This document shows, one piece after another, positions 10,325 through 13,099 of a DNA stretch of 34,272 nucleotides (position 1 is its first letter; each line of letters begins with the position of its first letter). Source of the stretch: Candidatus Heimdallarchaeota archaeon (GTDB lineage Archaea > Asgardarchaeota > Heimdallarchaeia > Heimdallarchaeales > Kariarchaeaceae). The position numbers and the translations under genes were made by a program. The notes under the pieces were generated by a model that worked only from the letters and a program-made list of their open reading frames with translations, was not told where the DNA came from and made no database searches. The stretch lies in contig WAKA01000037.1 of assembly GCA_015523565.1 (NCBI GenBank), positions 1 through 34,272 of the forward strand. The letters are read 5' to 3'.

Positions 10325-13099
10325 TTGGAGAGGATATGTATTTCTCAAAATCAAGCTTATGATCTATTAACCACTAAATATCTTCCGAACCCTTCCGATG
10401 GGGAATTGCAGATGATTTCCGACCTCTTTAAGGACTGGCTAAGATCGAAGAATGAAGGGCTTTTGGTTCATATGTTTCAGATTATCGATAGCCATGAATC
10501 TCAAGAGGTTAGGAATCTTGCATTGGATCATATTCAACGATTTTTACCCTCTCAAAAAAGGGAATTGGTCTTAAATCTCTGGATAACACACCCCCTGCCG
10601 TCCTTGAAAGACTTCATCAAGCAACTTGTCGATACCTATCGTGACAAAATCAAAAAGCCATTGCTTTCTGCATTGTTTGTCATGTTAGATGAGCTTATCA
10701 AACTAGAGGAAATGGATCCAGATCTCATATATCTTGATACTTATCTGGAAGACATGGATCCCTCATTGGGAAGCCTTTTGTTTGAAAGGGCTGGCAAGCT
10801 CAAGAAAAAACTCTTCGCAACTCGTCCTCCCCAGATTTTTAGCGACGAAAATGTATCCATTGCAGATCTTCTCAGCAAAAAAGATTATGATACACTTTGG
10901 CAATCCGTTTTGAATTACCCATTCCCTTTTATCTGTGAAATGATCAAGACCCTTGAAGAAGAGGGATGGACTCCTGATGACTTGGAGATCCGGCGTTTCA
11001 AAGACATTCTTGCTGAATATCTTGGAAATGAAGGGTGGAAACCAATTGAACATGTGCTTGATTTGACATTGTCCATTCGTGATCCAAAAACACAAAGTTT
11101 CCGAAAATTGACGCAAACAGAAACCCGGATGAAACTGATTGACATCAAAATCTCCCCAATTATCTTCACTCGTCCAGATAGAATCCCAAAAATGCCGTTT
11201 GTCAATAGGGGAAGATTCAATCTTGTAGATAATGCCTTGGGGATTTCTATCTATCAGGAAAGGGTAAGATACTCTTCTTTTACTGGAAAACTTCATATTC
11301 CAATTTATTCTTCGAATGGTGTTCAAATTGCAGAGATTGTTGCGTTTGCCTCTCAGACATCTTCTTTCCACATGGACGAAGATGGTCTATATTTTTCTAT
11401 TAAGACAAAGGGTGGAACTTATTCTGTAGACCTTGATGCTCTTGCTTCATTTCTTCTCCCGTTTAATCAACATACTGAACTCATTGCCGCGGCTATTCCC
11501 GTCATGCTTTCCGATGCTACTGGACGAAAAAGATTGATCATCGAAGCTATGAAGCTCCTTTCAGACCTGCAGCAAGGTCGATCTTTCTCAATTTTTGACC
11601 TTAAGGAAGAAGTTCCAATTGTAAATCACACAAAAAATTCATGTTGCTCTCTTGCTTTCGATTTCGGCAACTATTTCACAAAAGTGGGCGTCATTCCTTC
11701 AACATGCAACCATCGACCTGTATTCTTTGAGTTCCCTTCCGCAATCTATTATTTGACTCCTTCCCAAAAATTTGTTGGAGACATTCTCTACCAAAAAGAA
11801 ATTGAGGGAGAACCAGTTGATCCAACTTTAATCTTTACAGATATACAATACGGATTGGCACACGGGACTACCCATACAATCCGGGTACAAAATCTCACAA
11901 TTGATGTCCAGACAGCTACAAGTAATTTCATTGAGGAGGTCATCAAAATTGTCATGCAAGAAATTGATTATCCAATATCTACAGTGGTGTTTTCACATCA
12001 AAGTAACGTTCCTCTCAAATATCTGGTTTGGATGAAACAACAATTCCACAATCTTGGCTTTGAAACAGTAACTGGTCTGAATTCTGCCCTGTCCCATATT
12101 TTGGCAGATTATCGGCTGAAAAAGACAAAAGGTGTATACTTGTATGTCAATGTCAATGAAAATGGAACTGAATTAACGCTGGTGGAACTTCCTCCACAAA
12201 AAACAAAGAAAAGAAAGGAAACTGAATTGCTAAAGGTAAACCAGCCTGCTCCGAAAATTGTAGTTCAAAGATATGTACCTTATGGACTGCCCCAGCTTTT
12301 AGAGAAACTGAAGAAATTCGTTCCTGACAATGTTCCCGATCTTGATAAAAACAGAATGGTTGTCAATGGTGTTCAAGAGTTGTTTACTCAATTTGAAAGT
12401 CATATATTTCCAAACCCCATATTTATTGATTCCAATAATGATTGTGAATATTGCATTGACACATCTCTTTTCTTTGACTTTGAAAAGCTTAGTTTTGTTC
12501 TGAGAGATATTTTTTACCATGGGCTTGATCAAGGAATCCCCAAATCTAAAATCTCTGGTATCATCTTTTCAGGTCTTGGAAAAATGTATCCTGATTTGGC
12601 CCGTTTTATATTCAACTATTTTGACAAACAATTTCCAATTGTTGTTCTCGATGATCCTGACATTTGTGCCAAAGGTCTTGGGATCTTTGGAAATGGCCAG
12701 CAGATAGAGGCTCCACTCGGCTATGAAATCATGCTTAGAACTAGTGATGAAGGACTCATGACGTTTCAGACATTGTTTCAAGAAGGTGAAAAAATTACAG
12801 GGATGTCCAAGAAGTTCCAGATCAACATGGAGACAAAACTTGACACCATAGCACTTGACGTATGGACGAAACGCAGCAATTACGAAAAGGCCATTGAAAA
12901 AGAAGAACACGAGCATTCCAATATAGAAGATCAATACATTTTTGATAAATTGACCCCATTTCCAAGATTATTGCCGATTTCAAAGTGGAAAAATCCCATT
13001 ATTTTTGCAGGTATTGACAAATTTGGCAGGTTTGGTCTCTCCATTCACGAAAAGGATACTGATGAAATTGTGTTGGATTATATCTCCCCCATGCTTTAA
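10325..13099 (+). CDS. Large multidomain protein: helical/beta N-terminal region plus degenerate Hsp70/actin-like ATPase-fold domain
   Basis: LAFDFGNYFTKVG (phosphate-1), FPSAIYY, IIFSGLGKMYP (adenosine motif) and DPDICAKGLGI (connect-2) occur in Hsp70 order. Start is uncertain (TTG 10325). Confidence 0.75.
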   Translation: MERICISQNQAYDLLTTKYLPNPSDGELQMISDLFKDWLRSKNEGLLVHMFQIIDSHESQEVRNLALDHIQRFLPSQKRELVLNLWITHPLPSLKDFIKQLVDTYRDKIKKPLLSALFVMLDELIKLEEMDPDLIYLDTYLEDMDPSLGSLLFERAGKLKKKLFATRPPQIFSDENVSIADLLSKKDYDTLWQSVLNYPFPFICEMIKTLEEEGWTPDDLEIRRFKDILAEYLGNEGWKPIEHVLDLTLSIRDPKTQSFRKLTQTETRMKLIDIKISPIIFTRPDRIPKMPFVNRGRFNLVDNALGISIYQERVRYSSFTGKLHIPIYSSNGVQIAEIVAFASQTSSFHMDEDGLYFSIKTKGGTYSVDLDALASFLLPFNQHTELIAAAIPVMLSDATGRKRLIIEAMKLLSDLQQGRSFSIFDLKEEVPIVNHTKNSCCSLAFDFGNYFTKVGVIPSTCNHRPVFFEFPSAIYYLTPSQKFVGDILYQKEIEGEPVDPTLIFTDIQYGLAHGTTHTIRVQNLTIDVQTATSNFIEEVIKIVMQEIDYPISTVVFSHQSNVPLKYLVWMKQQFHNLGFETVTGLNSALSHILADYRLKKTKGVYLYVNVNENGTELTLVELPPQKTKKRKETELLKVNQPAPKIVVQRYVPYGLPQLLEKLKKFVPDNVPDLDKNRMVVNGVQELFTQFESHIFPNPIFIDSNNDCEYCIDTSLFFDFEKLSFVLRDIFYHGLDQGIPKSKISGIIFSGLGKMYPDLARFIFNYFDKQFPIVVLDDPDICAKGLGIFGNGQQIEAPLGYEIMLRTSDEGLMTFQTLFQEGEKITGMSKKFQINMETKLDTIALDVWTKRSNYEKAIEKEEHEHSNIEDQYIFDKLTPFPRLLPISKWKNPIIFAGIDKFGRFGLSIHEKDTDEIVLDYISPML

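What the first reader, a model, noticed from the sequence alone, without database searches (positions are those of the whole stretch)
10325..13099. 924-aa pseudo-Hsp70: helical/beta region fused to a catalytically degenerate Hsp70-fold domain
Seen: from residue ~440 (nt ~11640) Hsp70 NBD landmarks appear in order: AFDFGNYFT, FPSAIYY...VG, IIFSGLG..YP, DPD..AKG..I, then PLGYEI...F..LF..G resembling the linker and start of the substrate-binding domain. Positions I align by eye to the catalytic Lys (KR to QY), connect-1 Glu (NEPTAA to NSALSH) and phosphate-2 (DxGGGT to NVNENGT) are all substituted, and a basic KTKKRK insert is present. The first ~235 aa look like a helical solenoid, followed by a beta-rich segment with one WD-blade-like stretch (SSFHMDEDGLYFSI). 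No DnaJ or GrpE is nearby. Inference: a non-enzymatic scaffold or adaptor, analogous to eukaryotic atypical Hsp70s and actin-related proteins. It may be a fusion of a helical+WD40 gene and an Hsp70-like gene, a pairing I recall from other prokaryotes but cannot verify.
Basis: partly seen in the sequence, partly recalled or inferred. Interest (0 to 1): 0.78.

Follow-up and report, generated by a model that had tools for sequence, protein, structure and literature searches.

The report
Dead Hsp70 look-alike in Asgard archaeon
This 924-residue archaeal protein has the shape of an Hsp70 chaperone but has lost its ATP-splitting residues, and it probably serves as a passive adaptor for an RNA-helicase module, much like accessory proteins predicted by computation in 2024 for bacterial anti-virus systems.

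Summary
AlphaFold2 (pLDDT 84) gives four parts: a helical repeat domain (1-248), an alpha/beta domain with no clear PDB match (249-431), an Hsp70 nucleotide-binding domain (437-796) and a lidless substrate-binding beta domain (797-924). The Hsp70 part matches DnaK, BiP and Hsp110 at Z 25-26.

Of 12 ATPase sites aligned to the genome's own DnaK, the window protein keeps two. Distant relatives with the same architecture (899-986 aa) keep all the catalytic and phosphate-2 residues. They sit in an operon: DUF2997, radical SAM, AAA+, this protein, UPF1-like helicase, large protein.

All 12 genomes of the window's family carry the degenerate form, the helicase and a 574-aa partner. These lie head to head in 6 genomes but are unlinked in the window's genus. 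DUF2997, the radical-SAM gene and the operon AAA+ were not found in this 90%-complete genome.

The best reading is a non-catalytic adaptor of a helicase-effector module. The closest published kind is CnuD/CnuH/CnuE of type III CoCoNuT systems (PMC11090510), but no McrBC is present. The scan had already noted the parent operon and the helicase pair on other DNA. Binding and RNA targeting are inferred, not shown.

The parts
10325..13099 (+). Whole ORF, 924 aa (TTG start), helical::alpha-beta::pseudo-Hsp70 protein
   Evidence: full-length orthologues in 11 of 11 genomes of the same family
10325..11068 (+). Residues 1-248: all-helical repeat domain (15 helices, HEAT/ARM-like). Shared with the catalytically intact operon-type relatives.
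   Evidence: AF2 secondary structure; residues 25-255 match P0016, P0019, P0022 and P0028; weak HEAT_2 and Xpo1 hits in 2 relatives; mean pairwise identity 0.44 in the family
11069..11617 (+). Residues 249-431: compact alpha/beta domain plus helical hairpin. This is the best conserved part (motifs TRPDRI and MDEDGLYF). No clear known fold.
   Evidence: Separate AF2 model with pLDDT 88.9 and pTM 0.82; Foldseek PDB best E 0.08; VIA wide best Z 5.2, on the helix hairpin only, with propeller-like matches at Z 4.3-4.8; atlas TM at most 0.35; pairwise identity 0.46
11633..12712 (+). Residues 437-796: Hsp70-type nucleotide-binding domain, catalytically degenerate
   Evidence: VIA Z 25.7 to the DnaK NBD 7rax (model 439-796 to chain 1-393, 320 aligned); profile hit to PDB Hsp70 NBDs at E 1e-7; residue table
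11639..11713 (+). Phosphate-1 hairpin (AFDFGNYFTK; D446 and G448 kept), flanked by clade-invariant C440, C441 and C461 and by H463 (His in most members): a candidate metal site
11846..11848 (+). Q508 at the position of the catalytic Lys (DnaK K70)
12083..12085 (+). S587 at the position of the catalytic Glu (DnaK E171)
12149..12172 (+). Degenerate phosphate-2 loop NVNENGTE in place of DLGGGTFD (D194 to N, GGG to NEN, T199 to G, D201 to E)
12191..12220 (+). Basic insert PPQKTKKRKE in the lobe IIA hairpin. It is conserved as P..KSRKR in the degenerate clade and absent from the active relatives and from DnaK.
12560..12592 (+). Adenosine motif remnant IIFSGLGKMYP (first Gly invariant, second Gly changed to Leu)
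12713..13096 (+). Residues 797-924: SBD-beta-like sandwich. The protein ends here, so there is no helical lid.
   Evidence: VIA two-domain alignments, for example 4b9q with model 440-920 to DnaK 2-501, Z 25.5; beta strands run to the C-terminus; alignment with own DnaK

Best explanation
The gene encodes a pseudo-Hsp70. An N-terminal helical repeat domain and a conserved alpha/beta domain of unknown fold are fused to an Hsp70 nucleotide-binding domain and a lidless SBD-beta. The ATP-hydrolysis machinery of the Hsp70 part has decayed.

It descends from a catalytically intact protein of the same architecture. That ancestor type is one subunit of a six-gene Asgard operon: DUF2997 protein, small radical-SAM enzyme, AAA+ ATPase, helical::Hsp70, UPF1-like SF1 helicase, and a large protein.

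In the window's archaeal family, the DUF2997, radical-SAM and AAA+ genes were not found. What remains in every genome is this protein, the helicase, and a shortened 574-aa downstream partner.

I infer three things, in falling order of confidence:
1. The protein no longer cycles ATP.
2. It acts as a passive adaptor or regulatory subunit of the helicase-partner module. Its main working surface would be the well conserved N-terminal half, possibly with the conserved basic KSRKR loop.
3. The module acts on RNA, in surveillance or defence.

Shown: the fold, the residue loss, the ancestry pattern and the gene linkage in relatives. Inferred: loss of ATPase activity, physical binding to the helicase or partner, and RNA as the target.
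For: Fold:
- The AF2 full-length model has pLDDT 84.2 and pTM 0.72.
- Foldseek top hits are two-domain Hsp70s at E about 1e-15.
- VIA gives Z 25-26.5 to Sse1, DnaK-ATP, BiP-ATP and Ssz1 over model residues 439-922.
- The family profile hits PDB Hsp70 NBDs at E 1e-7.

Residue loss:
- Of 12 ATPase sites, the window protein keeps D8 and G10 only.
- All 14 members of the clade lack GGG, T199 and D201.
- The four operon-type relatives keep D8, K70, E171, D194, T199 and D201.

Relaxed constraint on the Hsp70 part:
- Pairwise identity is 0.28 for the NBD and 0.26 for the SBD.
- It is 0.44-0.46 for the two N-terminal domains.

Ancestry:
- P0016, P0019, P0022 and P0028 share the N-terminal module.
- They score above the Pfam HSP70 threshold.
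- Three of them lie in the same six-gene operon.

Partners:
- The helicase orthologue is 41% identical over residues 80-914 and lies at G000:C179:6453-9134.
- The gene after it is the genome's only match to the operon's large protein.
- All 12 family genomes carry all three genes.
- In G004, G005, G006, G008, G009 and G010 the pseudo-Hsp70 lies head to head with the helicase-partner pair. The same is seen in the P0012 locus.

Not found in this genome: DUF2997, the radical-SAM gene, and an orthologue of the operon AAA+.

Helicase type:
- It is of the UPF1/IGHMBP2/Sen1/Dna2 kind, with all motifs invariant.

Published parallel:
- CnuD combines HEAT repeats with an Hsp70 NBD/SBD and has degenerate ATPase motifs.
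- It is encoded with the UPF1-like helicase CnuH and the wHTH-effector CnuE, and is predicted to target RNA (PMC11090510).
Against: - No experiment or validated model shows that these proteins bind one another.
- In the window's own genus and in one other genus the three genes are unlinked. In G003 they lie 110 kb apart.
- Residue loss was read from a sequence alignment, not from superposed coordinates. D446 and G448 of phosphate-1, the first Gly of the adenosine motif and the fold are all kept, so nucleotide binding without hydrolysis is not excluded.
- Several clade members still have K70, E171 and D194, so the clade may not be uniformly dead.
- The Hsp70 half is not generally basic. RNA binding rests on analogy and on one short loop.
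- The 574-aa partner matches no Pfam or PDB family by sequence.
- The genome is 90% complete, so 'not found' for the lost operon genes is not proof of absence.
Confidence: 0.55

Rival explanations
1. It is a nucleotide-sensing switch rather than a dead scaffold. The domain would still bind ATP or ADP without useful hydrolysis, as Ssz1 and Hsp110 do and as CnuD is predicted to do. Nucleotide state would then gate its interaction with partners.
For: - The NBD fold, D446 and G448 of phosphate-1 and the first Gly of the adenosine motif are kept.
- Other clade members keep K70, D194 and sometimes E171.
- The best structural matches are ATP-state, docked conformations of Sse1, BiP and DnaK.
- Bell et al. 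predict ATP/ADP binding with negligible hydrolysis for CnuD.
Against: - The window copy has lost the whole phosphate-2 Gly-rich loop, the Mg-coordinating Asp and the second adenosine Gly.
- NBD conservation is low across the clade.
- AF2 often predicts docked Hsp70 states, so the modelled conformation is weak evidence.
Confidence: 0.2
2. It is a stand-alone proteostasis factor: an ATP-independent holdase, or an Hsp110-like co-chaperone or exchange factor for the cell's canonical DnaK. It would be unrelated to the helicase.
For: - An SBD-beta is retained.
- Sse1 (Hsp110) is the nominal top VIA match at Z 26.5, though it is tied with DnaK and BiP.
- A canonical grpE-dnaK-dnaJ cluster exists in the genome.
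- The gene is not next to the helicase in this genus.
Against: - The SBD-beta is the least conserved part (0.26 identity; 5% of columns are at least 80% conserved).
- Hsp110 function needs ATP binding and a lid, and both are missing here.
- Gene linkage in 6 of 12 family genomes and in the ancestral operon points to the helicase module.
- No J-protein or GrpE lies nearby.
Confidence: 0.08
3. It is a decaying relic with no remaining function.
For: Catalytic residues are lost, the Hsp70 half evolves fast, and operon partners are missing.
Against: - Relatives were found in all 12 family genomes and six genera, and none of the matches contains a stop.
- Invariant motifs are concentrated in the N-terminal half.
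- The AF2 models are confident.
Confidence: 0.05

Closest known systems
CnuD (and the CnuCD fusion) of type III CoCoNuT systems, with CnuH (UPF1-like SF1 helicase) and CnuE (wHTH-effector). Bell, Sahakyan, Makarova, Wolf and Koonin, eLife 2024, PMC11090510. A computational description only.
   Same: - HEAT-like helical repeats are joined to an Hsp70-like NBD/SBD.
- The ATPase motifs are degenerate.
- The protein is encoded with a UPF1-like helicase, which is followed by a gene for a further protein.
- It is proposed to be a non-chaperone targeting or adaptor subunit.
   Different: - No McrB-like GTPase (CnuB) or McrC/DUF2357 (CnuC) lies in any locus seen here. DUF2357 was not found in the genome either, though that search had no positive control.
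- This is archaeal, whereas CoCoNuTs are reported as nearly absent from archaea.
- It has an extra conserved alpha/beta domain.
- Its ancestor sits with an AAA+ ATPase, a DUF2997 protein and a radical-SAM enzyme.
- It is inherited across a whole family rather than scattered in islands.
- Direct sequence homology to CnuD was not tested, because no CnuD sequence was available by reference.
Asgard six-gene operon: DUF2997, radical SAM, AAA+, helical::Hsp70, UPF1-like helicase, large protein. I found no paper describing it. It was noted earlier by this scan (e1-5448797) and seen here in L017, L018 and L019.
   Same: - The protein architecture is the same, and the N-terminal module is homologous.
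- The helicase is orthologous at 41% identity.
- The N-terminus of the downstream protein is homologous.
   Different: - The window protein has lost the catalytic residues.
- It has gained a KSRKR loop and a Cys/His cluster, and it has a longer middle domain.
- The DUF2997, radical-SAM and AAA+ genes were not found in its genome.
- The genes are dispersed.
Eukaryotic atypical Hsp70s: Ssz1 of the ribosome-associated complex, and Hsp110/Sse1
   Same: - They have the Hsp70 fold (Z 24.6-26.5).
- The fold is used for a non-foldase role.
- Ssz1 is a structural partner with a truncated SBD.
   Different: - Ssz1 and Hsp110 still bind ATP and keep the phosphate loops.
- They lack an N-terminal helical/alpha-beta module.
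- There is no evidence of specific common ancestry. This is a 'works like' comparison only.
Canonical DnaK (this genome: G000:C232, L011:1477-3339)
   Same: The NBD and SBD-beta are in the same order and are colinear.
   Different: - Sequence identity is 13%.
- There is no lid.
- Ten of 12 ATPase sites are lost.
- There is a 436-residue N-terminal extension.
- No grpE or dnaJ lies beside the gene.

Membership tests
Hsp70 superfamily (fold level) | ASKHA-type nucleotide-binding domain of the Hsp70 kind | tested here: met
   VIA Z 25.7 to the DnaK NBD 7rax, with 320 residues aligned at rmsd 3.6. The family profile hits BiP and DnaK NBDs at E 1e-7.
Hsp70 superfamily (fold level) | SBD-beta sandwich directly after the NBD | tested here: met
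   Two-domain alignments: 4b9q Z 25.5 (model 440-920 to chain 2-501) and 6asy Z 25.6. About 550 columns align in Foldseek.
Hsp70 family (Pfam PF00012) | Score over the Pfam gathering threshold | tested here: not met
   The window protein gives no PF00012 hit at E up to 1. Three of 15 clade members hit weakly. The distant relatives P0016, P0019, P0022 and P0028 pass.
Functional Hsp70 ATPase (DnaK-type chaperone) | Catalytic and phosphate-binding residues: D8, K70, E171, D194, the GGG loop, T199, D201 | tested here: not met
   Only D8 and G10 are kept. The changes are K70 to Q508, E171 to S587, D194 to N609, GGGT to NENG and D201 to E616. This is alignment-based, not based on superposed coordinates.
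Functional Hsp70 ATPase (DnaK-type chaperone) | Alpha-helical lid and adjacent J-protein or GrpE genes | tested here: not met
   The protein ends at the SBD-beta. Its neighbours are a DUF998 membrane protein and an HD phosphohydrolase. The grpE-dnaK-dnaJ cluster is on contig C232.
CnuD of type III-B/C CoCoNuT | HEAT-like repeats plus an Hsp70-like NBD/SBD with degenerate ATPase motifs | tested here: met
   The definition is taken from PMC11090510.
CnuD of type III-B/C CoCoNuT | Encoded with a UPF1-like SF1 helicase (CnuH) followed by an effector gene (CnuE) | tested here: inconclusive
   The genes are adjacent in 6 of 12 family genomes and in the ancestral operon. They are unlinked in the window's genome. 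The wHTH or nuclease nature of the 574-aa protein was not confirmed by sequence.
CnuD of type III-B/C CoCoNuT | Part of an McrBC-derived system: NxD McrB GTPase CnuB plus DUF2357 McrC homologue CnuC | tested here: not met
   No McrB or DUF2357 gene appears among the called genes of L015, L017, L018 or L019. DUF2357 was not found in the genome, but that search had no positive control.
CnuD of type III-B/C CoCoNuT | Direct sequence or profile homology to published CnuD sequences | not tested
Asgard DUF2997 / radical-SAM / AAA+ / helical::Hsp70 / helicase operon | Homologous helical::Hsp70 subunit | tested here: met
   The N-terminal module matches P0016, P0019, P0022 and P0028 at E 8e-21 to 5e-4 in a library of 1.84 billion proteins. 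The full-length alignment is colinear.
Asgard DUF2997 / radical-SAM / AAA+ / helical::Hsp70 / helicase operon | Presence of the DUF2997, radical-SAM and AAA+ partner genes | tested here: not met
   These were not found in the 90%-complete genome. DUF2997 was not found in 9 of 11 family genomes.
WD40 beta-propeller (middle segment) | Closed propeller of WD40 blades | tested here: inconclusive
   The domain is about 180 residues and gives no WD40 Pfam hit. Partial matches of about two blades to LRRK2, Apaf-1, Nup37 and clathrin propellers reach Z 4.3-4.8 over 77-95 residues. Atlas TM is at most 0.35.

The most novel reading that the evidence does not exclude
In a whole family of Heimdall-group Asgard archaea, a conflict-type operon was cut down and domesticated into a vertically inherited housekeeping complex. 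That complex would consist of a UPF1-like helicase, a nuclease-type partner and a catalytically dead Hsp70 adaptor, and it would carry out RNA quality control. It would then be a prokaryotic counterpart, in close relatives of eukaryotes, of UPF1-type RNA surveillance. It would also be an Asgard example of an Hsp70 turned into a pseudo-enzyme scaffold, as in Ssz1.
Probability: 0.1. Interest if true: 0.85.

Novelty: new variant of a known kind. Interest (0 to 1): 0.55.

Why it matters
Hsp70 derivatives that have given up chaperoning are well known in eukaryotes (Ssz1, Hsp110). A 2026 review names Asgard genomes as the place to look for overlooked ones (PMC13580251).

This case offers a natural series. 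Catalytically intact operon-embedded forms, partly degenerate forms and a nearly fully degenerate form all share one architecture. The series shows which parts stay under selection when ATPase activity is abandoned: the N-terminal helical and alpha/beta domains.

It also extends the HEAT-Hsp70 / UPF1-like helicase / effector association beyond its published setting. That association has so far been described only by computation, in bacterial McrBC-derived systems. Here it occurs in archaea, without McrBC, in a lineage where it looks like a core gene set rather than a mobile island.

The middle domain has a confident model with no clear solved relative, which makes it a good target for structure work.

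Tried and rejected
- Single-sequence searches of the window protein found nothing useful. These covered Pfam, NCBIfam, PADLOC and PDB.
- The ESM Atlas feature search of residues 1-436 gave no usable hit.
- The middle domain has no clear match. Foldseek PDB best E is 0.08. VIA wide best Z is 5.2, on a helix hairpin only. Atlas TM is at most 0.35. This does not show that the fold is new.
- A search for a free-standing N-terminal module (profile A7, proteins of 206-805 aa) found none. The search depends on a word index, so this is weak evidence.
- The search for related loci with the Asgard DUF2997 proteins over genome contigs confirmed no locus. I therefore could not fetch bacterial HEAT-WD40/Hsp70 operons to test homology with the N-terminal module.
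- Complex prediction was run on the N-terminal module (1-436), the helicase N-terminus (1-345) and the 574-aa protein N-terminus (1-160). The verdict was 'no answer': scores were 0.60, 0.61 and 0.55, but the control with the helicase chain replaced scored 0.46. This is not evidence either way.
- The 574-aa partner matches nothing by sequence. This covers the profile against PDB, Pfam on all 12 members and PF11977 (Regnase/NYN) in the genome, which hits other genes but not this one.
- The idea that the Hsp70 half is globally basic was rejected. The pI of the NBD and SBD varies from 4.5 to 9.5 across the clade, and the window copy is acidic.
- An actin/ParM-like reading of the DFGN..TK motif was rejected. 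All structural matches are Hsp70-type and an SBD-beta follows the NBD.
- SBDS homologues gave no organism names for close relatives, so the taxonomy could not be fixed this way.
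Full report
**The gene and its setting.**
The window holds a 924-codon ORF on the + strand, from TTG 10325 to the stop ending at 13099. Orthologue alignments begin at residues 5-9, so the predicted start is about right.

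The window is archaeal. It carries SBDS and the exosome genes rrp4, rrp41 and rrp42. It also carries an Lrp/AsnC regulator, haem-copper oxidase subunits and beta-oxidation enzymes.

The genome is a 3.57-Mb assembly of 233 contigs, about 90% complete. A distant homologue is named by NCBI as coming from a Candidatus Heimdallarchaeota archaeon, and an earlier scan note calls this genome Heimdall-group Asgard. I did not establish the taxonomy independently.

The flanking genes are a divergent DUF998 membrane protein and a convergent HD-domain phosphohydrolase. No DnaJ or GrpE is nearby.

**Is it an Hsp70?**
The single sequence matches nothing in Pfam, NCBIfam or the PDB. An exhaustive phmmer search of 1.84 billion representatives found only 27 relatives.

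A profile of 15 full-length relatives hits BiP, DnaK and Hsc70 nucleotide-binding domains at E about 1e-7. The hit is colinear from profile 433-783 to DnaK 8-359.

AlphaFold2 with an 18-sequence alignment gave pLDDT 84.2 and pTM 0.72. The model has four parts:
- 15 helices in residues 1-248
- an alpha/beta domain in 249-431
- an NBD in 437-796
- a beta domain running to the C-terminus

Foldseek's best PDB matches are two-domain Hsp70s at E about 1e-15, over about 550 columns. VIA-align gives these scores:
- Z 26.5 to Sse1
- Z 25.5 to ATP-bound DnaK 4b9q (model 440-920 to chain 2-501)
- Z 25.7 to the DnaK NBD alone (model 439-796 to chain 1-393)
- Z 24.6-25.2 to Ssz1

These values are tied, so they establish the Hsp70 fold and not a subfamily. 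There is no helical lid.

**Catalytic residues.**
I aligned the family with this genome's own DnaK (L011:1477-3339) and with four distant relatives. I then tabulated 12 ATPase sites.

The window protein keeps only D8 and G10. The other changes are:

| DnaK site | Window protein |
|---|---|
| K70 | Q508 |
| E171 | S587 |
| D194 | N609 |
| GGG-T199 | NEN-G |
| D201 | E616 |
| second adenosine Gly | Leu |

All 14 members of the window's clade lack GGG, T199 and D201. K70 and D194 survive in 10 of 14 members and E171 in 4 of 14. The four distant relatives keep D8, K70, E171, D194, T199 and D201.

The window copy is the most degenerate of a degenerating clade.

Within the clade the Hsp70 half is far less conserved than the N-terminal half. 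Pairwise identity is 0.26-0.28 against 0.44-0.46. Columns at least 80% conserved make up 5-9% against 23-24%. This is the reverse of canonical Hsp70s.

The clade has also gained two features:
- a conserved basic loop (P..KSRKR; PPQKTKKRKE in the window protein) in the lobe IIA hairpin
- a Cys/His cluster around the phosphate-1 hairpin: invariant C440, C441 and C461, with H463 conserved in most members

From memory of the DnaK-J-domain structure (5NRO), that lobe IIA hairpin is the acidic J-domain docking site. A basic insertion there would fit loss of J-protein control. This point is recollection, not a test.

**The N-terminal half.**
Residues 25-255 are what the distant relatives share most clearly. 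Two relatives give weak HEAT_2 and Xpo1 hits.

I modelled the middle domain on its own, and it is confident (pLDDT 88.9, pTM 0.82). It has no clear solved relative:
- Foldseek best E is 0.08.
- VIA wide best Z is 5.2, on the helical hairpin only.
- Matches of about two blades to WD40-type propellers reach Z 4.3-4.8.
- Atlas TM is at most 0.35.

It is not a WD40 propeller. Whether it is a remnant of one is open.

**Where it comes from.**
P0016, P0019, P0022 and P0028 are 899-986 aa long. They have the same N-terminal module and pass the Pfam HSP70 threshold.

Three of them sit in the same tightly packed operon:
1. a DUF2997 protein
2. a small radical-SAM enzyme (Fer4_12)
3. an AAA+ ATPase of about 540 aa
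4. the helical::Hsp70 protein
5. an SF1 helicase of about 940 aa (AAA_11/AAA_12)
6. a 972-1162-aa protein

I found no paper on this operon. This scan had already noted it on other DNA (e1-5448797), along with bacterial Ycf46-AAA / lidless Hsp70 / DUF1257 / DUF2997 / radical-SAM clusters that carry HEAT-WD40 or helical::Hsp70 proteins.

Among 301 genomes of the phylum, only one outside the window's family (G039) has an operon-type copy. No family genome showed an operon-type copy beside its degenerate one.

**What is left in this lineage.**
The window's genome has a clear orthologue of the operon helicase at G000:C179:6453-9134. It is 41% identical over residues 80-914.

The gene after it encodes 574 aa. 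Its N-terminus is the genome's only match to the operon's large protein. It is orthologous to the 554-aa gene in the P0012 locus.

DUF2997, the radical-SAM gene and an orthologue of the operon AAA+ were not found. DUF2997 was not found in 9 of 11 family genomes.

All 12 family genomes, across six genera, carry the pseudo-Hsp70, the helicase and the 574-aa gene. In G004, G005, G006, G008, G009 and G010 the pseudo-Hsp70 lies head to head with the helicase-partner pair. In the window's genus and in G007 they are apart; in G003 they are 110 kb apart.

The helicase is strongly conserved and all SF1 motifs are invariant. Its nearest solved relatives are IGHMBP2, UPF1, Dna2 and Sen1.

**Comparison with what is known.**
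Bell et al. (eLife 2024, PMC11090510) describe CnuD by computation. Their description has these points:
- CnuD has HEAT-like repeats plus an Hsp70-like NBD/SBD.
- Its ATPase motifs are degenerate, and it is predicted to bind nucleotide but barely hydrolyse it.
- It is encoded with the UPF1-like helicase CnuH.
- CnuH-family helicases are typically followed by a wHTH-effector gene, CnuE.
- The authors suggest that these systems target RNA.

The trio here has the same logic. It differs in several ways:
- It lacks the defining McrB and McrC genes.
- It is archaeal, whereas CoCoNuTs are reported as nearly absent from archaea.
- It has a different ancestry and is inherited across a family.

I could not test sequence homology to CnuD. 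Another agent studied the helicase pair in this same genome. It reached the CnuH-CnuE comparison and noted an Hsp70-like third gene elsewhere (e1-5639116). Its NYN-nuclease assignment for the partner was not reproduced by sequence here.

**Mechanism and odds.**
- I hold the identity (a pseudo-Hsp70 derived from an active operon subunit) at about 0.9.
- I hold a working link to the helicase-partner module at about 0.55.
- I hold RNA as the target at about 0.35.

The one complex prediction gave no verdict and is reported only as tried. The rival readings are a nucleotide-sensing switch, a stand-alone co-chaperone and a dead relic. They are listed with their tests.

**Verdict.**
This is a new variant of a computationally known kind, of moderate to good interest.

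Noticed in passing
G000:C193:58810-63952 (L021:7810-12953): This is a second non-canonical Hsp70 module in the same genome. An MBL-fold protein (477 aa), a 340-aa protein with no Pfam hit and an 898-aa Hsp70 sit in tight or overlapping succession. The Hsp70 has its NBD at the N-terminus and a long C-terminal extension.
   Followed up: partly
window 11639-11713 (residues 439-463): C440, C441 and C461 are invariant in the degenerate clade, and H463 is His in most members. All four are absent from the active relatives and from DnaK. They flank the phosphate-1 hairpin and could form a structural metal site or a disulfide.
   Followed up: partly
L017:5215-5772, L018:5198-5752, L019:5115-5675: The 'DUF2997' gene of the Asgard operon encodes about 185 aa. 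The Pfam family covers only 47 positions, so about 100 conserved N-terminal residues are unassigned. They might be a fused DUF1257-like part.
   Followed up: no
L017:1-5056: The operon-type copy P0028 lies beside defence-type genes: an N6/N4 methyltransferase, an HNH protein, an EVE/NucS-like protein and a CARF-domain protein. The window's degenerate copy sits among housekeeping genes.
   Followed up: no
window 19033-20493: The Rrp41 homologue is 486 aa, but its RNase PH domains end near residue 211, leaving a long C-terminal tail. Another finding already covers this (e1-5627758).
   Followed up: no
L014:10636-11964 (G003): In the same-genus genome G003, a 442-aa gene with no Pfam hit follows the pseudo-Hsp70 after an 11-nt gap. 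The window has no counterpart at that position; there the next gene is a convergent HD hydrolase.
   Followed up: no
G039:C243:122-973 and G039:C297:1282-2988: The only operon-type copy found among 301 genomes of the phylum is split over two contigs. Its N-terminal piece contains one TAA stop, and a DUF2997 gene lies on the same contig. It may be broken, or this may be an assembly artefact.
   Followed up: no
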